In this document: one piece after another, positions 1,627-24,071 of the stretch
Position numbering within the stretch: position 1 is the stretch's first letter
How the letters are laid out: the number at the start of each line of letters is the position of its first letter
Assembly: GCF_001465295.1 (NCBI RefSeq)
Contig: NZ_CP011034.1
Location: 1,920,001 to 1,952,000, forward strand
Direction: 5' to 3'
Length of the DNA stretch: 32,000 bases
Origin: Pseudoalteromonas translucida KMM 520
GTDB taxonomy: Bacteria; Pseudomonadota; Gammaproteobacteria; Enterobacterales; Alteromonadaceae
Position numbers and translations under genes: made by a program
Notes under the pieces: model-generated
Database searches by the model: none
Told to the model about the DNA's origin: nothing
What the model saw: only the letters and a program-made list of their open reading frames with translations

Positions 1627-3045
1627 TTACTTAACTAATTTAATATTATGATCGAATGAGCCCACATCCCCCGGAAATACCACTGGCGACTCAATCCCCT
1701 CTTTATTGATGGCTGCAACACCAAAATAGTAATTATCAATAACTACATTGTTAAGTGTAGCTTGAGTAACCTTACCTACGGTTTTACTAAACTGCCATTG
1801 TGGCTCGCTGGTAAAACGCCAATAAATACGATAACCGGTTATATTATTGTCTTTAGATGCCTGCCACGACAAATGCGTATTAGCCGTTACCGCACCCGCT
1901 ATTTTCACTTCTTTAGGAGGCGCTGGAGCCCACGCCATAGACGCTAAACTTACAGCATTAAGTGCGGTTAATTTAGCTGCATAGTCAAAATCAACGCCTT
2001 TAATCGTATCACCATATTCAATGCCGTTTTCAGTGCGTAAGTCTTGATGCTGACGATCGTAATGCTCGTTTGTTTCCATAATACGCACTGCAGCAAAGCC
2101 CGCGTCATTAAAGGGTCTATGGTGCCCGCCTCTGCCAAATCGGTCTAACCGGTAAACTAGCATAGTGTCTAAATTAGCAATATATCTGTCGGCAATGGTA
2201 TCTATGTAACGCGCCAAGTTACGACTAGCTGAGTCAACCTCGCCCCCGGTAAAGCGACGCGTTCGTGCTTGCTCTTTAGTTTCTATTACGCGTGTACCTT
2301 CAGAAAATATCCGCGCTGTGGTGTTATCGGTTACGCCATTAACACCGGTAATATTGCCTATCATGTCGTTGTTTAGTACTGCGTGTATTTGCCAATCGTG
2401 TTTTTGCGCATAAGCAGTTAAAATTTTACCACCAAATAAACCCTGCTCCTCGCCCGACAGCGCCGCGTATACCACAGAGCCATTAAACTTATGCTTACTC
2501 AATACGCGCGCCGCCTCTATTACGCCCGCTACACCCGAGGCGTTATCGTTAGCACCTGGCGAATCACTAGTAAAGTCCATCACATCGCTTACGCGTGAGT
2601 CTATATCGCCCGACATTATTACCATACGGTTAGGCTCGCTTATACCGCGCTGAATAGCGACAATATTAACCACTTCGGTTGCATTAGGAATTCGTTTTTC
2701 TCCCGATATAGTGTCTTTTACTTCAATAATTTCGAGGCAGCCGCCGCATTGTGCTGATATTTTTTCGAACTCTTGTTTTATCCAGCGCCTTGCTGCGCCA
2801 ATACCACGGGTATCCGATTTAGTGTCTGATAATGTATGGCGCGTACCAAAATCCACCAGCGTTTGAATATCGCCACCTATACGCTGCGCTGAAATATCAC
2901 CGGCTATTACATGCAATTTTTGTTGGTCAGTGTATTTAATCTCGCCCGCTGCCAATGCTTGCGAAGTTAAACCCACAAAACAAGCAGTTGCAAGAGTACT
3001 CACGCTAAGTAATTTTGTTGTTATTTTAAAAGGTGTTTTAAGCAT
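1627..3045 (-). CDS. secreted M28-family zinc aminopeptidase with a C-terminal fibronectin-III-like domain
   Basis: There is an N-terminal signal peptide (KLLSVSTLATACFVGLTSQALAAG). M28 metal-ligand motifs are present: MSGDIDS, GANDNASGVAGVIEAARVL, LSGEEQGLFGG, NNDMIG. The C-terminal about 90 aa (..LSWQASKDNNITGYRIYWR..YYFGVAAINKEG) look FN3-like. Confidence 0.85.
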   Translation of the reverse strand: MLKTPFKITTKLLSVSTLATACFVGLTSQALAAGEIKYTDQQKLHVIAGDISAQRIGGDIQTLVDFGTRHTLSDTKSDTRGIGAARRWIKQEFEKISAQCGGCLEIIEVKDTISGEKRIPNATEVVNIVAIQRGISEPNRMVIMSGDIDSRVSDVMDFTSDSPGANDNASGVAGVIEAARVLSKHKFNGSVVYAALSGEEQGLFGGKILTAYAQKHDWQIHAVLNNDMIGNITGVNGVTDNTTARIFSEGTRVIETKEQARTRRFTGGEVDSASRNLARYIDTIADRYIANLDTMLVYRLDRFGRGGHHRPFNDAGFAAVRIMETNEHYDRQHQDLRTENGIEYGDTIKGVDFDYAAKLTALNAVSLASMAWAPAPPKEVKIAGAVTANTHLSWQASKDNNITGYRIYWRFTSEPQWQFSKTVGKVTQATLNNVVIDNYYFGVAAINKEGIESPVVFPGDVGSFDHNIKLVK

Positions 3046-3240
3046 CTAATGGCTCCTTATTTTTATTATAATCACCATTACGTAAGTAAGCTTATTGCGC
3101 AATACTTTTGCGGTAGGCACCACAAAAAAGTAAGTTAAAGCACAGATTAAAGGTTTAATTAAGCCAGATAATTAGCAACCACAATATTTAGTAATATAGT
3201 TATTTATGCCACACTAGCTTCTTTATATATTAAAAACTTT

Positions 3241-19930: not shown

Positions 19931-20042
19931 GTTGGGTGGCGCCTTCGGCTTAACCAACCTACCTTTTGACGTAAGTCGGATAAGCGGCGAAGCCACGCCA
20001 TCCGACAAAAGTGATGAGTTTACTAAAAACAACCCGACTTAC
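19931..20042. repeat. two REP-like GC-rich extragenic palindromes, the second nested inside a 9-bp inverted repeat
   Basis: The first is gttgggt-ggcgccttcggc-ttaaccaac (19931-19958). The second is gtcggat-aagcggcgaagccacgcc-atccgac (19975-20006). The outer inverted repeat is gtaagtcgg (19971-19979) / ccgacttac (20034-20042). The form resembles enterobacterial REP (GCCGGATG..CATCCGGC). Confidence 0.5.
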
Positions 20043-20096
20043 CGCGTTATGCAGTAACCGAAAAATGTATTAAAGGTAATTACAGGAGCTTTACAC

Positions 20097-20531
20097 CTAG
20101 TTTTTACCCGATTCTAATTTCTGCTTTAATAATTCAATAAGTTGAATGTTAAGCCCGGTAATTTCAGCTTCTAGCACCTTCACTTTTGCCTGCGACTCTT
20201 CATCATCTTTACTGCGTAACAATGCAGTTTCTTGCAGTAGTTTTTCAAGCTTTTCTTGTATTTCAGCAATCAGTTCATCAAGGGGATCACCTTCAGATTA
20301 TGATGCTTGATCTACATCTTCATTACCTAATAACTTGCGAAATGCCGCTTGATTTTTATCTTCCAGACTTTTTTCCGCCCCCTCTTCAGATATATCTACT
20401 TGAACACCTTGAGCCACTCCCTTTTGCACTGTCTGTTTTTCAGAAACGTCATCAGCCACCACCTTTAAAATTTGTTTTTTCGGGTGAGCTTCTAAAGATT
20501 TAGACGTTATGTTAACTGACATTTTATCCAT
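20097..20531 (-). pseudogene. FlxA-like coiled-coil protein gene interrupted by one in-frame TAA (77 + 66 codons)
   Basis: The listed 77-aa ORF ends at a TAA (comp. 20300-20298). The same frame stays open for 66 more codons (SEGDPLDELIAEIQEKLEKLLQETALLRSKDDEESQAKVKVLEAEITGLNIQLIELLKQKLESGKN) to a TAG at comp. 20099-20097. The heptad-like pattern with an acidic centre resembles FlxA-family proteins; the family call is tentative. Confidence 0.4.
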
Positions 20532-20624
20532 TGTAACACCCCTTATTTAATCAATTATTGGTGGCTATTGCTCAACTATAAATATAATGTTTTGCCAGCT
20601 GTTATTTGTTCTTGTATATAAAAT

Positions 20625-20879
20625 TTGTGCCTGTCCTATTTTACTTCTAAATTTTTAAGGCAAACATTTGTGCGTTATTCATTTTGGGAAAAAACATATT
20701 ATCGGCAGCAAGAAGCCAAAGGAAAACCCCATAATACCATCACCAGATCATTAGCATCTAAGTGGATACGAATACTATTTAGGTGCTGGAAAACATATAC
20801 GCCCTACGATGAATCAACTTACTTAACTGCATTGAAAAGTAAGAGATCACCGCTGTTAAAATTTACGGTGGGAAGTTAG
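20625..20879 (+). mobile_element. 3' remnant of an IS110-family (IS1111-like) transposase gene; the N-terminal catalytic domain is missing
   Basis: The translation ..KFLRQTFVRYSFWEKTYYRQQEAKGKPHNTITRSLASKWIRILFRCWKTYTPYDESTYLTALKSKRSPLLKF matches the conserved IS110-family C-terminus (..YY..QR.KGKSH..A.RALAFKWIRI.FRCW....PYDE..YL.AL...GSPLL). Only about 75 of the roughly 340-400 expected codons are present. The frame is closed by a TAA at 20619-20621. Confidence 0.75.
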
Positions 20880-20883
20880 CTTT

Positions 20884-20924
20884 AGTGCTTGCTGTCCACC
20901 TCAGGGCGTGTTGTTAGACTTACA
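20884..20924 (-). other. truncated integron attC site of cassette 2 (R'' core plus L''-side arm only)
   Basis: The minus strand reads TGTAAGTCTAAC-AACACGCCCTGAGGTGGACAGCAAGCAC. GTCTAAC fits RYYYAAC and starts 5 nt after the ORF stop. The 12 nt TGTAAGTCTAAC are the exact reverse complement of the first 12 nt of the cassette (comp. 22330-22319). The partner arm is absent and the IS110 remnant abuts here. Confidence 0.7.
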
Positions 20925-22256
20925 TTACTCATCACCTGAGTCATCATCTTTATTTTTATCTTTATAAGCCTTGAAAATCTTGAGTAACTTCTCATTATCC
21001 GTAAGGGGATCTCGATAAGTATTTAGGATTTTTTGAAGTTTCTCATTACCCGCAAATGGGTCTTGATAAGAATTTAGGATTTTTTGTAGCTTTTCATTAC
21101 CCGCAAATGAGTCTTGATAAGAGTTAAGGATTCTTTGTAGCTTTTCATTACCCGCAAATGAGTCTTGATAAGAGTTAAGGATTCTTTGAAGTTTCTCATT
21201 ACCCGCAAATGAGTCTTGATAAGAGTTAAGGATTCTCTGAAGTTTCTCATTACCCGCAAATGAGTCTTGATAAGAGTTAAGGACTTTTTGTAATGGCTCA
21301 TTACCAATTGGCTGAAGATGCTGAACCTCAGCATCTTCGATAGAGCTTTCACTTACATCAATAGATAAATTTGATTTACCATCTTCTAGAAACATTGATG
21401 TACTGTACATATGAAAGTTTTTGATATTTGACTCTCGATATATTTCAGATTGTAGCTCAGCAAGGGGACCAATAGTTTTTTTACCATTTAAATTTATTTT
21501 GTACCACCAGTCTTCTTTCGCGTCGTCAGTAATGAAAATTACATTCTCAATATTATCATTCTGTGACTTCTTAATTAATTGTTTCCAAAGAATAAGATCT
21601 CCATATTGTCTCTCATAATTTAAGCCATCATTATAAAAGTGTGTTTCATCATCACCATTACCTTTTCCTGCATCCTTAAAACCCGGAGGGATTTTATTTT
21701 TAAATCGATCTTTTCCTTCAATGTAAAGTTCGTCTAACCACTTTTGGTCTTCTGGTTTTTCACCGACTTTCTCATGGAAAAAATCATTGAGTTTATCTCT
21801 TATTTCATCATGCGATCTTACACATGGTTGTTCATTATCCCAGTGCTGAACAGACTTCTTGTAATTTGAAATACTCTTGTTAATTTCTTTTTCAAGTTTC
21901 TCTGTATTTTCAAACAATTTAGGGAAACGGCGTTTAAGTGCTAGTTTTTCGAAATCCCCTTTAAAAACTTTTTGAATTTTACCTAAATTACTTTCAATAT
22001 CATTAAAAACTACTTTTTCATTTTTAATTATGCTTAATCTACGTCTTTGATACTCCAAGCCTACATGGTACGGGAGCCATAACTTATCGTTAACAGCATC
22101 AAGGATACTAAAGAAGTCATCCCTAGTTTGTTTAGCATATCCATATAAATTAAGTAGAACGTTGGTATCAAAAACAAAAATAGTTTTTTCATCCTTCCAT
22201 AACTCTTCCAATACAGCACTATCAATATTGTAAAACCCTTTAAATATATCTTTCAT
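20925..22256 (-). CDS. PIN-like domain nuclease (DUF4935/PIN-like type) with a C-terminal 7 x 17-aa tandem-repeat tail
   Basis: N-terminal PIN acidic residues lie in characteristic contexts: FVFDTNVLLNLY (D30), YHVGLEYQRR (E68), YGDLILW (D220), FITDDAKEDWW (D244/D245). Residues about 319-436 are repeats of NEKLQ(R/K)ILNSYQDSFAG, followed by an acidic end DDDSGDE. Confidence 0.75.
   Translation of the reverse strand: MKDIFKGFYNIDSAVLEELWKDEKTIFVFDTNVLLNLYGYAKQTRDDFFSILDAVNDKLWLPYHVGLEYQRRRLSIIKNEKVVFNDIESNLGKIQKVFKGDFEKLALKRRFPKLFENTEKLEKEINKSISNYKKSVQHWDNEQPCVRSHDEIRDKLNDFFHEKVGEKPEDQKWLDELYIEGKDRFKNKIPPGFKDAGKGNGDDETHFYNDGLNYERQYGDLILWKQLIKKSQNDNIENVIFITDDAKEDWWYKINLNGKKTIGPLAELQSEIYRESNIKNFHMYSTSMFLEDGKSNLSIDVSESSIEDAEVQHLQPIGNEPLQKVLNSYQDSFAGNEKLQRILNSYQDSFAGNEKLQRILNSYQDSFAGNEKLQRILNSYQDSFAGNEKLQKILNSYQDPFAGNEKLQKILNTYRDPLTDNEKLLKIFKAYKDKNKDDDSGDE
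20938..21310 (-). repeat. 51-bp in-frame tandem repeat array (about 7 units) inside the PIN-like gene
   Basis: Units start at 20989, 21040, 21091, 21142, 21193 and 21244 with an exact 51-bp period. Degenerate units lie at both ends. Adjacent central units (21091-21243) differ by about 2 bases each in my by-eye alignment. Confidence 0.9.
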
Positions 22257-22318
22257 TCATTGTCCTAAATTAGTTCTGCTTTTAAATAAATATGCTGAGG
22301 GATGTTGTTAATTGTGTC

Positions 22319-22424
22319 TGTAAGTCTAACGTCTGTGTTCAGCGGCATTTGAGGCGACACCTGTTTTTGTGGCAGCAAAATTGGGTGGTCCCTCAAATGT
22401 CCGCTGCAACGACTTGTTATAAGC
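22319..22424 (-). other. complete integron attC recombination site (about 101 bp core, R''-L''...L'-R')
   Basis: The minus strand reads GCTTATAAC-AAGTCGTT-GCAGCGGACATTTGAGGG-(35 nt)-CCTCAAATGCCGCTGAAC-ACAGAC-GTTAGAC. The L''/L' arms pair except for one unpaired A in L'', an extrahelical base. R' GTTAGAC fits GTTRRRY. R'' starts 4 nt after the upstream ORF stop. Confidence 0.8.
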
Positions 22425-23691
22425 AACCTTACCGCGGCAAGTGGAATGCTTGGATAGCAATATGAACTTCTCGATTTGAATCATCATTAATGTGAAACCG
22501 ATACTGATACCAACCTTCTTCCACCTCTTTGACAAATCCCAAATGATTCGGATGTTCTGAAGTAACTTCACGAATAGTTTCGAGGACGGGGCTGAACTCC
22601 TTGTTGGATATGAACATAACCACTGCTGCCTTTGAATCCCTCCAAGTGAGATACGAAAGCAACTGAGTTATTGTTTCGAGATAGCCTTTCTTCCCATGCC
22701 AATATTTCAATTCGGCCACGAACACATTTGAGCCCTCGTGACGAAGCAAAATATCTGTTTTACCTTTCTTATTAAATGTTTCGCCCGTTGCAGAACCCTC
22801 AAAATTTGGCTCTAAAATCAGAAGCATATGATCACGAAGATGTTCCTCACCTTTTCCAGCGTATGTACTCGGCAACCGCTCAAATTGCTTGCCAACATCG
22901 TGGATAATTTTGAGAATCTGATGGTAAATTGCGTTATCAAGAGTTGGTTCCGGCTTATAGCCTTTGGCAGTAACTTCGGGCTTGGGCTTGCTTGGTATGG
23001 CTGGGGTTCGTTTAGCTGGAACTGAGAACGTAGAAGGTGTGCTGTGAGCTTTTCGAACAGGAATACCCAAAGCCGAAATCACGTCATGTTTCTTTAACAA
23101 CTGTTCTTTTCGTGCATCGAATGCTTTGCTCAACAGTGACTCCAACGACCCGTTGAATCTTACTAGATCGTTCGTAAGATTCTGGTTTTGCGACGTTAAC
23201 TGCGCCACAACATTATCAGCCTCGCGCTTTATCGCTTCCGCTTCTTGGTTAAAGTTAATAATTTCAAACTGAATTTCCCGACCATCAGTCTGAATACGCG
23301 GAGATGACATGCTGTATGTACTTGCACGAACCTTGAGCAACTGAGCATCCCCAGAAAACGGCAGGTGGAAGGTGTACACATCTTTTGGATAGGATTTTCC
23401 ATTGTCCACCCAGTATGAACTGGGATGTCGTTTGGCAGGAATCATCCGTTCTTCAACAGAAACCGATAGTTGCTCTTGATGAATTTCCAATGGCTGCATT
23501 GAAAACTCCGAACCCAAATGATCAAGGTATTCCGTCTTGTTTACATTCAGAATGTAATCGTCAGTCTGGCCCTTTATAGCTTGAAGGGCTTGTTCCTTCC
23601 TGCCTTCGATTACGCCAAATCCATCTAACTCATAAAAGGCTACAAAATAATTATGCCCGTATCGACTCATCTCAGCTCCAGTAGCTTATAA
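22330..23691 (-). mobile_element. integron gene cassette 1 (413-aa nuclease-like protein), complete, 1362 bp
   Basis: It starts TTATAAGC (from G|TTATAAGC, comp. 23692-23684) and its own attC carries the exact complement GCTTATAAC (comp. 22424-22416). It holds a single ORF with an SD-like GGAG 6 nt before the ATG. It ends at the G of R' GTTAGAC. Confidence 0.75.
22429..23670 (-). CDS. hypothetical two-domain protein with a C-terminal PD-(D/E)xK-like nuclease motif
   Basis: The 413-aa ORF has an N-terminal domain of about 200 aa ending in a coiled-coil-like stretch (aa 140-195). A Pro/Lys/Ser-rich linker spans aa 205-243. The C-terminal domain has the ordered motif GEEHLRD (E275/E276) .. GKTDILL (D306) .. 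FVAELKYW (E320-x-K322) .. ITQLLSY (Q336). This is the E...D...ExK...Q order of restriction-endonuclease-fold enzymes. Confidence 0.6.
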   Translation of the reverse strand: MSRYGHNYFVAFYELDGFGVIEGRKEQALQAIKGQTDDYILNVNKTEYLDHLGSEFSMQPLEIHQEQLSVSVEERMIPAKRHPSSYWVDNGKSYPKDVYTFHLPFSGDAQLLKVRASTYSMSSPRIQTDGREIQFEIINFNQEAEAIKREADNVVAQLTSQNQNLTNDLVRFNGSLESLLSKAFDARKEQLLKKHDVISALGIPVRKAHSTPSTFSVPAKRTPAIPSKPKPEVTAKGYKPEPTLDNAIYHQILKIIHDVGKQFERLPSTYAGKGEEHLRDHMLLILEPNFEGSATGETFNKKGKTDILLRHEGSNVFVAELKYWHGKKGYLETITQLLSYLTWRDSKAAVVMFISNKEFSPVLETIREVTSEHPNHLGFVKEVEEGWYQYRFHINDDSNREVHIAIQAFHLPR

Positions 23692-23692
23692 C
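23684..23692 (-). other. cassette-boundary core site GTTATAAGC (R'-type) at the upstream end of cassette 1
   Basis: It is a perfect reverse complement of the R'' core at 22416-22424. It lies 13 nt upstream of the ATG. Immediately upstream is only a 6-bp-stem hairpin (AACGAG..CTCGTT), not a full attC. Confidence 0.55.
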
Positions 23693-23764: not shown

Positions 23765-24071
23765 TCGATTACTTATTTATGCAGAATATAAAGTGGGAGT
23801 TTGATGTTGTTTTAATTGGTATTCTGGAAGGAATTACTGGTGTTTAAGCGGCTTTATTGAGGTTAAAAGAGCTTCCCCCTCTTAATGCATCGTGTTTTGC
23901 AGCTTTTCTATATTATGAACAAGGCAATACAGTTGCCATTACGCATTCACTTGACCCCGTAACAGATAAAAAGTCGTAACAAGGACAGGCGCATATTTTT
24001 TGGCAAAGAACTGTAACGCGCTAAAGCACGCCCTACATATTAGCTGAACCTTTTTACTTTTAACCTATAAT

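What the first reader, a model, noticed from the sequence alone, without database searches (positions are those of the whole stretch)
20925..22256. Cassette-borne PIN-like nuclease fused to a 17-aa solenoid-like repeat tail
The N-terminal about 290 aa carry the four acidic PIN-type residues in characteristic contexts: FVFDTNVLL, GLEYQRRR, YGDLILW and FITDDAKEDWW. This suggests a Mg-dependent RNase or DNase of the PIN-like (DUF4935-type) group, which is frequent in defence islands but poorly characterised. It is fused to seven copies of NEKLQ(R/K)ILNSYQDSFAG and an acidic C-terminus. I do not know this domain combination. The gene occupies its own integron cassette directly downstream of the PD-(D/E)xK cassette, so two different nuclease-type cargo genes sit side by side.
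Basis: partly seen in the sequence, partly recalled or inferred. Interest (0 to 1): 0.75.

Follow-up and report, generated by a model that had tools for sequence, protein, structure and literature searches.

The report
Cassette-borne PIN nuclease with repeat tail
This is a mobile integron gene cassette that encodes a stand-alone PIN-type nuclease of unknown function; its catalytic body is conserved, its tail of seven 17-residue repeats evolves very fast, and it is a reasonable but untested candidate for a one-protein anti-phage system.

Summary
The ORF 20925-22256 (-) encodes 443 aa. Residues 26-267 match Pfam PIN_8 (PF18476, E 1.7e-67), not DUF4935. D30, E68, D220 and D244 are invariant in 34 homologues. 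Residues 319-437 are seven 17-aa units (51-nt period), followed by DDSGDE.

The gene is a genuine integron cassette. Its 5' GTTAGAC box is the exact inverse complement of the GTCTAAC box after the stop codon. Homology to a metagenomic copy stops at these boxes. Vibrio homologues sit in superintegron arrays. The window has no integrase, and the cassette's own attC is cut by an IS110 remnant.

The "unknown domain combination" is the family norm. PIN_8 has 7,269 clusters at 50% identity, and members carry a conserved roughly 310-aa N-terminal body plus a 50-220-aa tail. The tails are hypervariable: bodies 91-92% identical can carry tails 21-27% identical. Different tandem repeats recur across lineages, and copy number varies from 6 to 8 among close relatives.

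AlphaFold gives no confident solenoid (pLDDT 43-53), only short amphipathic helices. There is no conserved neighbour gene and no antitoxin gene. Homologues occur on tiny plasmids, in prophages and in integrons.

The best reading is a single-protein defence or abortive-infection nuclease with a regulatory or sensor tail, analogous to Cosus (PIN_12). Function is inferred, not shown.

The parts
20925..22256 (-). CDS of the 443-aa PIN_8 protein. It is 100% identical to PTRA_a2117 of Pseudoalteromonas translucida KMM 520.
   Evidence: ORF list; P0001 at 100% identity and coverage.
21321..22256 (-). Conserved catalytic body, aa 1-312. The Pfam PIN_8 match covers aa 26-267 (21456-22181). The acidic residues are D30, E68, D220 and D244/D245.
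   Evidence: Pfam E 1.7e-67; invariant columns; AlphaFold2 pLDDT mostly 80-95 for aa 10-310; 7,269 family clusters match this part.
20946..21302 (-). Seven tandem 17-aa (51-nt) units, aa 319-437, consensus NEKLQ(R/K)ILNSYQDSFAG. Each unit is predicted as a helix of about 10-11 residues plus a 6-residue loop.
   Evidence: Tandem Repeats Finder; unit table and nucleotide identity matrix; DSSP of the models; amphipathic moment 1.79 against shuffles 0.96+/-0.46.
20928..20945 (-). Acidic C-terminal tip DDSGDE (aa 438-443). The stop codon is at 20925-20927.
   Evidence: Translation; 86 of 103 close homologues have at least 4 D/E in the last 12 residues.
22324..22422 (-). Complete attC-like site of the upstream (PDC-S54) cassette. 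R'' is TTATAAC at 22416-22422. R' is GTTAGAC at 22324-22330, and the G|TT crossover there is the 5' boundary of the PIN cassette.
   Evidence: Hairpin scan -38.5 kcal/mol; ssDNA fold z -5.3 with two bulged bases; homology to L036 begins exactly at this box.
22257..22323 (-). 5' untranslated part of the PIN cassette, with an AGGA ribosome-binding site about 7 nt before the ATG. It is conserved in the metagenomic copy and in decayed form in Alkalimonas.
   Evidence: 81% identity to L036 here against 57% upstream of the box; visible alignment. No convincing sigma-70 promoter was found.
20880..20917 (-). Truncated attC of the PIN cassette. R'' GTCTAAC lies at 20911-20917 with the start of the L'' arm; the rest is lost.
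   Evidence: Sequence; exact inverse complement of the 5' box; the equivalent full attC is present in L036 (GCCTAAC...GTTGAAC).
20625..20879 (+). Remnant ORF. Its last roughly 60 codons match the C-terminus of IS110-family transposases, and it abuts the truncated attC.
   Evidence: NCBIfam NF033542, profile positions 306-342 of 343, E 3.4e-4, well below the curated cut-off. The match is weak and only a fragment.
22429..23670 (-). Upstream cassette gene, 413 aa. It is a full-length match to the PADLOC phage-defence candidate PDC-S54 and is not genetically linked to PIN_8 elsewhere.
   Evidence: PADLOC E 3.3e-152; absent from all 35 PIN_8 loci.
23685..23692 (-). GTTATAAG box 14 nt upstream of the PDC-S54 start codon. 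It is the exact inverse complement of that cassette's R'' and is the likely 5' boundary of the first cassette.
   Evidence: Inverted repeat I21; sequence.

Best explanation
The feature is a single-gene integron cassette, now stranded in a two-cassette array without an integrase next to serS in Pseudoalteromonas translucida.

It encodes a stand-alone member of the PIN_8 family (VapC group of PIN-like, metal-dependent nucleases). The protein has two parts:
- A conserved roughly 312-aa catalytic body whose four acidic residues (D30, E68, D220, D244) should bind Mg2+/Mn2+ and cleave nucleic acid.
- A non-globular, fast-evolving C-terminal tail. Here it is seven 17-aa amphipathic-helix-plus-loop units ending in an acidic tip.

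Shown: family membership, conserved active-site residues, cassette structure, mobility across integrons, plasmids and prophages, absence of any partner gene, extreme tail variability, and copy-number change.

Inferred: the protein acts as a one-protein anti-phage or anti-mobile-element (abortive-infection type) nuclease. The tail holds the nuclease in check or targets it and determines which invader is recognised. Repeat slippage and recombination supply new tail variants.
For: Identity:
- PIN_8 scores 228 bits with full profile coverage.
- The acidic residues are invariant in 34 homologues.
- Matelska et al. 2017 place PIN_8 in the VapC group with 4-5 conserved active-site residues.
- The model has the long helical insert after strand 2 that the paper describes for the related DUF4935.

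Cassette and mobility:
- The attC hairpin and matching boundary boxes are present.
- Identity to the metagenomic copy L036 is 81-88% inside the boxes and 53-57% outside.
- V. anguillarum and V. vulnificus homologues lie inside superintegron arrays flanked by 124-nt repeats.
- GC content is 32-36% against 41-46% in the flanks.
- Homologues occur on 80 plasmids. One is a 4.2-kb plasmid whose only cargo is the PIN gene and an upstream 65-aa ORF.
- Homologues also occur in a Clostridium phage and a Moritella prophage and match phrog_9788.
- The taxonomic spread is patchy across many phyla.

Autonomy: there is no recurrent neighbour in 35 loci, and PDC-S54 is never linked.

Tail as variable module:
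- Bodies 91-92% identical can carry tails 21-27% identical.
- The tails of 258 members fall into 135 BLAST clusters, 116 of them singletons.
- Of 103 close homologues, 25 have tandem repeats of period 17-21, and other periods occur in distant members.
- Copy number is 6, 7 or 8 units in proteins whose bodies are 93-96% identical (426, 443 and 460 aa).

Precedent and setting:
- Cosus (Brc24) is a single-protein integron cassette with a PIN_12 domain. It gives complete T7 resistance that is largely lost in T12A, D14A and D96A mutants.
- Integron cassettes are enriched in defence systems.
- The adjacent cassette is a PADLOC defence candidate.
Against: - No experiment exists for any PIN_8 protein. 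There is no hit to a PADLOC defence model for the PIN body and no NCBIfam name.
- Neighbourhoods are not classic defence islands. Flanks include nrdAB, RND efflux, Hsp70 and urea carboxylase genes. Only a few of 142 neighbours hit PADLOC models.
- Foldseek finds no significant PIN structure in PDB or BFVD, so the fold assignment rests on profile and sequence evidence.
- The tail's role is pure inference. AlphaFold2 gives no docking or fold information. The catalytic body is itself net acidic (-10), so a simple electrostatic pseudo-substrate model is not supported.
- No promoter was detected in the cassette and no Pc/intI lies nearby, so expression in this genome is unknown.
Confidence: 0.5

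Rival explanations
1. It is a self-contained addiction or toxin module, that is, a fused toxin-antitoxin. The PIN body is a VapC-like toxin and the labile C-terminal tail is an in-cis antitoxin. The benefit is stabilisation of cassette arrays and small plasmids rather than phage defence.
For: PIN_8 belongs to the VapC group. It is the main cargo of a 4.2-kb plasmid. Superintegrons are known to carry many toxin-antitoxin cassettes that stabilise them (Darracq preprint introduction), and a HigB/HigA pair lies near the V. anguillarum copy. No separate antitoxin gene exists.
Against: A cis-fused, co-translated antitoxin does not by itself give post-segregational killing. Hypervariable tails are not expected for a purely intramolecular inhibitor. 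Some distant plasmid homologues do have a small upstream ORF, but this cassette has none.
Confidence: 0.2
2. The nuclease has some other accessory role, for example competition between mobile elements or a phage-beneficial function. The repeat tail is a largely neutral, slippage-prone disordered extension without a specific function.
For: pLDDT is low in both predictions. Central units are near-identical at nucleotide level, which indicates recent slippage. Copy number varies. Tails are unalignable across the family. The gene occurs in phages.
Against: A tail of at least 40 aa is kept in 258 of 259 members, with a median of 130 aa. The reading frame and amphipathic helix pattern are maintained in every unit. 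An acidic tip recurs in 86 of 103 close homologues. The boundary between body and tail is sharp and conserved at SSIEDA.
Confidence: 0.2
3. It is a housekeeping RNA-processing or DNA-repair nuclease of the host.
For: It is chromosomal, next to serS/rarA/ftsK. PIN domains often process RNA (Matelska 2017).
Against: attC boundaries are present, GC content is low, and the distribution is patchy across phyla. Copies sit on plasmids, in prophages and in shuffled superintegron positions. The flanking genes differ in every genome.
Confidence: 0.03

Closest known systems
Pfam PIN_8 (PF18476), the PIN_8 cluster of Matelska et al. 2017 (VapC group, function unknown)
   Same: Full-length profile match well above the gathering score. 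The 4-5 conserved acidic active-site residues are present. The gene is mostly bacterial and monocistronic. This protein is an ordinary member.
   Different: Nothing differs at the level of the catalytic body. The literature I could search does not describe the variable C-terminal tail or the integron association of the family.
Cosus (Brc24), an integron-cassette anti-phage protein with a PIN_12 domain (Kieffer et al., bioRxiv 10.1101/2024.07.02.601719; Science 2025)
   Same: It is a single protein in a single integron cassette. It has a VapC-group PIN-like domain whose acidic or T/D residues are needed for function. Homologues are found in marine gammaproteobacterial integrons, as lone cassettes with an attC outside integrons, and without attC.
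   Different: The Pfam family differs: PIN_12/DUF4935 against PIN_8, and PF16289 does not hit this protein. No repeat tail is reported for Cosus. No phenotype is known for PIN_8.
DUF4935 / PIN_12 (PF16289)
   Same: It is a sister family in the VapC group, with a long helical insert after strand 2, an N-terminal PIN followed by a C-terminal extension, and monocistronic genes. Nine of the 120 listed homologues carry a secondary PF16289 hit, and four are named 'DUF4935 domain-containing' by NCBI.
   Different: This protein does not reach PF16289 at E<=1. The DUF4935 C-terminal part is described as alpha/beta, whereas here the tail is helical repeats.
VapC toxins of VapBC type II toxin-antitoxin systems
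   Same: It has the same acidic tetrad in DTN..., E, D and T-D contexts, and is presumed to be a Mg2+/Mn2+-dependent endonuclease.
   Different: The body is about 310 aa with large helical inserts, against about 130 aa for VapC. There is no upstream antitoxin gene. Foldseek finds no significant similarity to solved PIN structures.
CapRel(SJ46)-type fused toxin-antitoxin defence proteins (Zhang et al. 2022; cited from my own knowledge, not checked here)
   Same: The architecture logic is the same: a conserved N-terminal toxic enzyme plus a hypervariable C-terminal region in one polypeptide, acting alone.
   Different: The enzyme is unrelated (a RelA/SpoT-like pyrophosphokinase). Its C-terminal domain is folded and has been shown to bind phage capsid protein. 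Here the role of the tail is only an analogy.
CALIN / SALIN (clusters of, or single, attC sites lacking an integron integrase; IntegronFinder categories)
   Same: There is one complete and one truncated attC, two cassettes in the same orientation, and no intI within 32 kb.
   Different: IntegronFinder itself was not run. The second attC is only a half-site, interrupted by an IS110-family remnant.

Membership tests
PIN_8 (PF18476) | Match to the family HMM above the curated gathering score over most of the profile | tested here: met
   228.2 bits against a 26.1-bit cut-off, E 1.7e-67, profile positions 1-226 of 227, residues 26-267.
PIN_8 (PF18476) | Four to five conserved acidic active-site residues (Matelska 2017) | tested here: met
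   D30, E68, D220, D244, D245 and D249 are invariant in 34 homologues down to 46% identity.
PIN-like superfamily | Three-layer alpha/beta/alpha fold with a parallel beta-sheet, similar to solved PIN structures | tested here: inconclusive
   The AlphaFold2 body is confident, and the order of strands and helices is compatible with the fold. However, Foldseek against PDB and BFVD gives no hit at E<=0.001. The best viral hit is a 'PIN like domain' protein at E 0.13. There is no PDB sequence or profile hit.
PIN-like superfamily | Metal-dependent nuclease activity | not testable with these tools
   This needs biochemistry.
DUF4935 / PIN_12 (PF16289) | Match to the PF16289 HMM | tested here: not met
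   There is no PF16289 hit for this protein at E<=1. Only 9 of the 120 listed homologues have a precomputed secondary hit.
Integron gene cassette | attC site downstream of the ORF: R''/L''...L'/R' imperfect palindrome, GTT crossover triplet, extrahelical bases | tested here: met
   The upstream cassette has a complete 99-nt site. The PIN cassette retains R'' GTCTAAC plus part of L'', and the rest is truncated. A full attC is present after the orthologous gene in L036 and in V. anguillarum.
Integron gene cassette | The 5' TTRRRY of the cassette is complementary to its own R'', which is the signature of a circularisable unit | tested here: met
   GTTAGAC / GTCTAAC in the window. GTTAGGC / GCCTAAC in L036, L038 and L001. 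GTTATAAG / CTTATAAC for the PDC-S54 cassette.
Integron gene cassette | The same unit is found between different flanks, with homology ending at the boxes | tested here: met
   Identity to L036 is 81-88% inside the boxes and 53-57% outside. The cassette sits at different array positions in V. anguillarum strains.
Complete integron | intI integrase, attI and Pc adjacent to the array | tested here: not met
   No tyrosine recombinase is found among the ORFs of the 32-kb window that I scanned. The whole genome was not available.
VapBC type II toxin-antitoxin | Small antitoxin gene immediately upstream in the same operon | tested here: not met
   Only 67 nt separate the cassette boundary from the ATG, with no ORF. 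No recurrent upstream gene is seen in 35 loci.
Known anti-phage systems (PADLOC-DB 2.0) | HMM match to a defence protein model | tested here: not met
   Only a weak hit of the repeat tail to PDC-M41A (E 1.3e-4, residues 322-359), and nothing for the PIN body. Current DefenseFinder models, including Cosus, were not available.
Cosus (Brc24) | Sequence homology to Brc24 and a PIN_12 domain | not tested
   I did not recover the Brc24 sequence from the paper's supplement with a term search. The Pfam families differ.
Alpha-solenoid repeat proteins (TPR, Sel1, HEAT and similar) | Repeat-family HMM match and a confidently predicted superhelical stack | tested here: not met
   There are no repeat-family Pfam hits, only sub-threshold chance hits. 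pLDDT is 43-53 in the full-length model. The tail-alone model has mean pLDDT 47.8 and pTM 0.24.

The most novel reading that the evidence does not exclude
PIN_8 may be a large family of one-protein immune sensors and effectors that has not been recognised as such. It has about 7,000 clusters at 50% identity. In this reading the C-terminal tail is both the in-cis inhibitor of the nuclease and the direct sensor of a phage component. Tandem-repeat slippage and tail swapping would then generate new specificities quickly, which would explain why near-identical nucleases carry unrelated tails and why repeats arise again and again in the family.
Probability: 0.2. Interest if true: 0.8.

Novelty: new member of a known kind. 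Interest (0 to 1): 0.5.

Why it matters
PIN_8 is a big, widely transferred nuclease family with no known function and no solved structure. This copy offers a compact, well-delimited test object: a 1.4-kb single-gene cassette with clear catalytic residues to mutate and a modular tail to delete, shorten or swap.

If it defends against phages, three things follow. It would add a second PIN-like family (after Cosus/PIN_12) to the integron defence repertoire. It would give a name to thousands of 'PIN-like domain-containing' proteins. It would also provide a natural system for studying how tandem repeats diversify recognition.

If it does not defend, the pattern of a sharply conserved body with a variable tail still needs an explanation.

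Tried and rejected
1. Linkage to the neighbouring PDC-S54 gene. tblastn finds it in none of the 35 PIN_8 loci, so the two are independent cassettes and not a two-gene system.

2. A conserved partner or antitoxin. All-against-all BLAST of +/-4 neighbour genes gives only chance pairs.

3. Restriction-modification neighbours. I guessed from gene sizes that L002, L003 and L008 carried type I restriction-modification genes. Pfam shows nrdAB, RND efflux and similar genes instead, so I dropped the guess.

4. Defence-island enrichment. Only a few of 142 neighbours hit PADLOC models, so this does not count as support.

5. Structural homology. Foldseek against PDB and BFVD, and phmmer and hmmsearch against PDB sequences, all gave nothing.

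6. Solenoid fold of the tail. Neither the full-length nor the tail-only AlphaFold2 model is confident.

7. The tail fused to other domains elsewhere. A tail-only search of the 5.8-billion-protein set returned nothing, not even the protein itself. This is probably a filter effect on repeats and is uninformative.

8. Electrostatic pseudo-substrate idea (an acidic tail on a basic body). The body is itself net -10, so this is not supported.

9. ncRNA or bridge-RNA near the IS110 remnant. Rfam gave only sub-threshold hits on the serS terminator.

10. A 30-nt inverted repeat bracketing the island (I1). The similarity fades outside about 35 nt, so I treated it as possibly chance.

11. A general attC association for the whole family. 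My hairpin scan finds attC-like arrays only in L017 and L018. By eye, boundaries are also visible in L001, L002, L036 and L038. Most other loci show none.
Full report
**1. What is in the sequence**

The minus-strand ORF 20925-22256 encodes 443 aa and is preceded by an AGGA ribosome-binding site. The protein is 100% identical to hypothetical protein PTRA_a2117 of Pseudoalteromonas translucida KMM 520 (P0001). The window is therefore chromosomal DNA of that strain.

The surrounding genes are core genes: lrp, ftsK, lolA, rarA and serS on one side, and a PQQ-type glucose/sorbosone dehydrogenase, Nramp, an aminotransferase and a U32 peptidase on the other.

The quoted motifs are all present. Tandem Repeats Finder finds a 51-nt period with 6.2 copies and 90% matches at 20989-21305. 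At protein level there are seven 17-aa units at aa 319-437:
- Unit 1 is NEPLQKVLNSYQDSFAG.
- Units 2-4 are identical, NEKLQRILNSYQDSFAG, and share 47-50 of 51 nt.
- Unit 5 has two substitutions, and units 6-7 are progressively degenerate.
- The protein then ends DDSGDE.

**2. The catalytic body**

Pfam places residues 26-267 in PIN_8 (PF18476) with E 1.7e-67, 228 bits against a 26-bit cut-off, covering the whole profile. DUF4935/PIN_12 (PF16289) does not appear even at E<=1. It is a secondary precomputed hit in 9 of the 120 listed homologues, and NCBI names four of them 'DUF4935 domain-containing'.

Matelska et al. 2017 (PMC5499597) defined PIN_8 as a VapC-group cluster with 4-5 conserved active-site residues, 458 sequences and unknown function.

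In an alignment of 34 homologues down to 46% identity, D30, N32, E68, D220, T243, D244, D245 and D249 are invariant. Conservation runs to about residue 309, at the SSIEDA motif.

AlphaFold2 with that alignment gives a confident body, with pLDDT mostly 80-95 for residues 10-310. It includes two long helices (63-105 and 112-142) after the second strand. This is the 'long helical insert following S2' that the 2017 paper describes for the sister family DUF4935.

Foldseek found no significant match in PDB or BFVD. The best viral hit is a 'PIN like domain' protein at E 0.13. There is no PDB relative by sequence or profile. The PIN assignment therefore rests on profile evidence and residue conservation, and the family has no solved structure.

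**3. The tail**

In the full-length model the tail (313-443) has pLDDT 43-53. It is drawn as helices of 9-11 residues (the last one 17) separated by loops of about 6 residues, one helix per unit. Predicted alone, it has mean pLDDT 47.8 and pTM 0.24. No repeat-family HMM matches. The helix EKLQRILNSYQ is amphipathic, with a hydrophobic moment of 1.79 against 0.96+/-0.46 for shuffles. A solenoid is therefore not supported. The tail looks like a flexible string of short amphipathic helices that may fold only on binding or oligomerisation.

**4. The architecture is the family norm, and the tail is hypervariable**

A phmmer scan of 1.84 billion cluster representatives with residues 1-312 finds 7,269 clusters at E<=1e-3 and 2,010 at E<=1e-30. 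In nearly all of the best 150, the match starts within the first few residues of a 400-550-aa protein.

The tail statistics across the family are:
- Of 259 family members examined, 258 have a tail of at least 40 aa, with a median of 130 aa.
- These tails fall into 135 BLAST clusters, of which 116 are singletons.
- Pairs whose bodies are 90-100% identical have a median tail identity of 59%, with values as low as 23% at the 10th percentile. P0006 and P0007 are 92% and 91% identical to the query in the body but 27% and 21% in the tail.
- Among 103 close homologues, 25 have clear tandem repeats of period 17-21 with unrelated unit sequences, for example IDNDRLREALERTNNIPS and DPMKEYREQQELLRTHL.
- Of the same 103, 86 have at least 4 acidic residues among the last 12.
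- Distant members show other repeats of period 17, 19, 20, 23, 35 and 37.
- Within the query's own tail type, copy number is 6, 7 or 8 units in proteins of 426, 443 and 460 aa (P0004, P0001, P0002).
- Some distant homologues replace the tail with a folded-looking module carrying a PD...(D/E)xK-like motif.

**5. The cassette**

Between the two genes lies a 99-nt imperfect palindrome at 22324-22422 on the minus strand. It starts TTATAAC and ends GTTAGAC. It was the strongest hit of an attC-shaped hairpin scan of the whole window at -38.5 kcal/mol. The only other hits are weaker and lie inside genes, and shuffles give 0-3 such hits. The bottom strand folded as ssDNA gives -25.5 kcal/mol and z = -5.3, with two single-base bulges on one arm, as expected for the extrahelical bases of attC sites.

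The GTTAGAC box is the exact inverse complement of GTCTAAC, which lies 5 nt after the PIN stop codon. The upstream gene shows the same relation, with GTTATAAG 14 nt before its start and CTTATAAC after its stop (I21). That is the signature of units that circularise at G|TT.

The same PIN cassette occurs in a metagenomic contig, L036, which encodes P0002. There it lies between GTTAGGC and GCCTAAC, has a complete attC, and has different flanking cassettes. Identity to the window is 81% in the 5' leader and 88% in the CDS, but only 57% and 53% outside the boxes.

In Vibrio anguillarum the homologue P0015 lies in the superintegron between copies of a 124-nt repeat starting TAACAAACG..., and its neighbours differ between strains. 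V. vulnificus P0046 is in a similar array. L001 and L002 also show the boxes, and Alkalimonas (L005) keeps a decayed leader without boxes.

In the window, the PIN cassette's own attC is cut after about 38 nt. It abuts an ORF whose end weakly matches the C-terminus of IS110-family transposases. From my own knowledge, the IS1111-attC subgroup of that family targets attC sites, which would fit. No integrase is present in the 32 kb. GC content is 32-36% in the gene against 41-46% in the flanks.

The element is therefore a short array without an integrase (CALIN/SALIN in the terms used). It resembles the lone chromosomal cassettes reported for Cosus homologues.

**6. Context elsewhere**

A degenerate-pattern scan of 185,579 species genomes gave 35 loci. 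They span Gammaproteobacteria, Campylobacterota, Bacteroidota, Actinomycetota, Saccharibacteria, Verrucomicrobiota and others.

No neighbour recurs, and PDC-S54 is never adjacent. Among 142 neighbour genes, only a few hit PADLOC models: mad8 in 4, mad3 in 2, AriA in 2, and one each of a TIR effector, a SNF2 helicase, PDC-S73 and PDC-M36A. Many flanks are housekeeping genes such as nrdAB, RND efflux, Hsp70 and urea carboxylase.

tblastn finds the family on 80 plasmids. One is the 4.2-kb Psychrobacter plasmid pA48P2, which carries only repM, a 65-aa ORF, the PIN gene and mobV. Another is a 5.2-kb ColE1-type Klebsiella plasmid. The family also occurs at the end of the Clostridium phage phiCp-A genome and in a Moritella viscosa prophage between endonuclease VII and the HNH/terminase genes. 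It matches phrog_9788, of unknown function. In P. ruthenica it lies in an islet next to glnS with a GHKL-ATPase protein and an IS3 element.

The gene is thus a self-sufficient accessory gene that is often mobile. It is not a member of a conserved operon and is not typically found inside large defence islands.

**7. Mechanism**

Shown:
- The protein is a PIN_8 member with an intact acidic tetrad.
- It is monocistronic and mobile.
- It has a sharply delimited, hypervariable tail that often consists of repeats.

Inferred, from what is established about VapC-type PIN domains: the protein is a Mg2+/Mn2+-dependent endonuclease. Its substrate cannot be predicted.

The most likely biological role is a single-protein anti-phage or anti-mobile-element effector. 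I base this on four points:
- The closest characterised analogue is Cosus (Brc24). It is a one-protein integron cassette with a PIN_12 domain that gives complete T7 resistance dependent on its PIN residues.
- Integron cassettes are now known to be rich in defence genes.
- The adjacent cassette is a PADLOC defence candidate.
- A conserved enzyme joined to a fast-diversifying region is the pattern seen in proteins whose variable part recognises an evolving partner. An example from my own knowledge is the CapRel fused toxin-antitoxin.

I propose that the tail restrains or targets the nuclease and that an invader-derived signal releases it. This step has no direct support. The structure predictions say nothing about docking, and a simple charge-complementarity model fails because the body is itself net -10.

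The rivals are:
- an in-cis toxin-antitoxin acting as an addiction module;
- an accessory nuclease whose tail is a neutral slippage product;
- a housekeeping enzyme, which is very unlikely.

**8. Comparison and novelty**

The gene is an ordinary member of a catalogued but uncharacterised family, and it is already in public databases as a hypothetical or PIN-like protein.

I could not find the following described in the searchable literature:
- the family-wide hypervariability of the tail;
- the recurrent independent tandem repeats;
- the cassette-borne subclade in marine Gammaproteobacteria.

These make PIN_8 a credible, testable candidate for a new single-gene defence family, but no more than a candidate.

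**9. Verdict**

- Observation: confirmed.
- Interpretation: partly supported.
- Novelty: new member of a known kind.
- Interest: 0.5.

Noticed in passing
window 22429-23670 (-): The upstream cassette gene (413 aa) is a full-length match to the PADLOC phage-defence candidate PDC-S54 (E 3.3e-152). It has no Pfam, PHROG or PDB relative. Its C-terminal 'GKTDILL...VAELKYW' looks PD-(D/E)xK-like by eye only.
   Followed up: partly
window 20625-20879 (+): A remnant ORF ends with a weak match to the C-terminus of IS110-family transposases (profile positions 306-342 of 343). It directly abuts the truncated attC of the PIN cassette. This is consistent with an attC-targeting IS that was later deleted.
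   Followed up: partly
window 20608-20637 and 23982-24011: A 30-nt imperfect inverted repeat (77% complementary) brackets the two cassettes plus the IS remnant. The similarity fades beyond about 35 nt, so it may be chance in AT-rich DNA.
   Followed up: partly
window 20096-20531 (-): A 77-aa ORF (20298-20531) is followed, in another frame, by a coiled-coil-like continuation (EGDPLDELIAEIQEKLEKLLQE...). It may be a frameshifted small gene between the IS remnant and the dehydrogenase gene.
   Followed up: no
window 19950-20060 (-): A hairpin-rich stretch (GTAAGTCGG...CCGACTTAC enclosing GTCGGAT...ATCCGAC) lies downstream of the small ORFs, next to the end of the dehydrogenase gene. It could be a REP-like or degenerate attC-like element.
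   Followed up: no
L017, L018, L021, L029, L032 (C-terminal part of the PIN_8 genes): Distant PIN_8 homologues replace the helical tail with a different module of about 150 aa carrying a PD...(D/E)xK-like motif (for example 'NRNGFPDFVGY...FGFEVK'). That would make them two-nuclease fusions. L017 (Halomonas) sits among several attC-like hairpins.
   Followed up: no
L036 150-510 and 2060-2365: In the metagenomic contig the PIN cassette is flanked on both sides by copies of a short repeated cassette of about 300 nt, each with its own attC-like end. An IS91-type transposase and a tyrosine recombinase lie downstream.
   Followed up: no
L042 (Psychrobacter plasmid pA48P2) 1355-1552; L043 (Klebsiella pC51_006) 2867-3142: Plasmid-borne distant PIN_8 genes are preceded by small ORFs (65 and 91 aa, with gaps of 57 and 12 nt). 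These could be antitoxin-like partners. No such ORF exists in the window cassette.
   Followed up: no
window 20925-21341 (-), tail-only query: A search of the 5.8-billion-protein set with the tail alone returned no hit, not even the parent protein. This is probably a composition or repeat filter effect. The question of whether this repeat occurs on other domains remains open.
   Followed up: no
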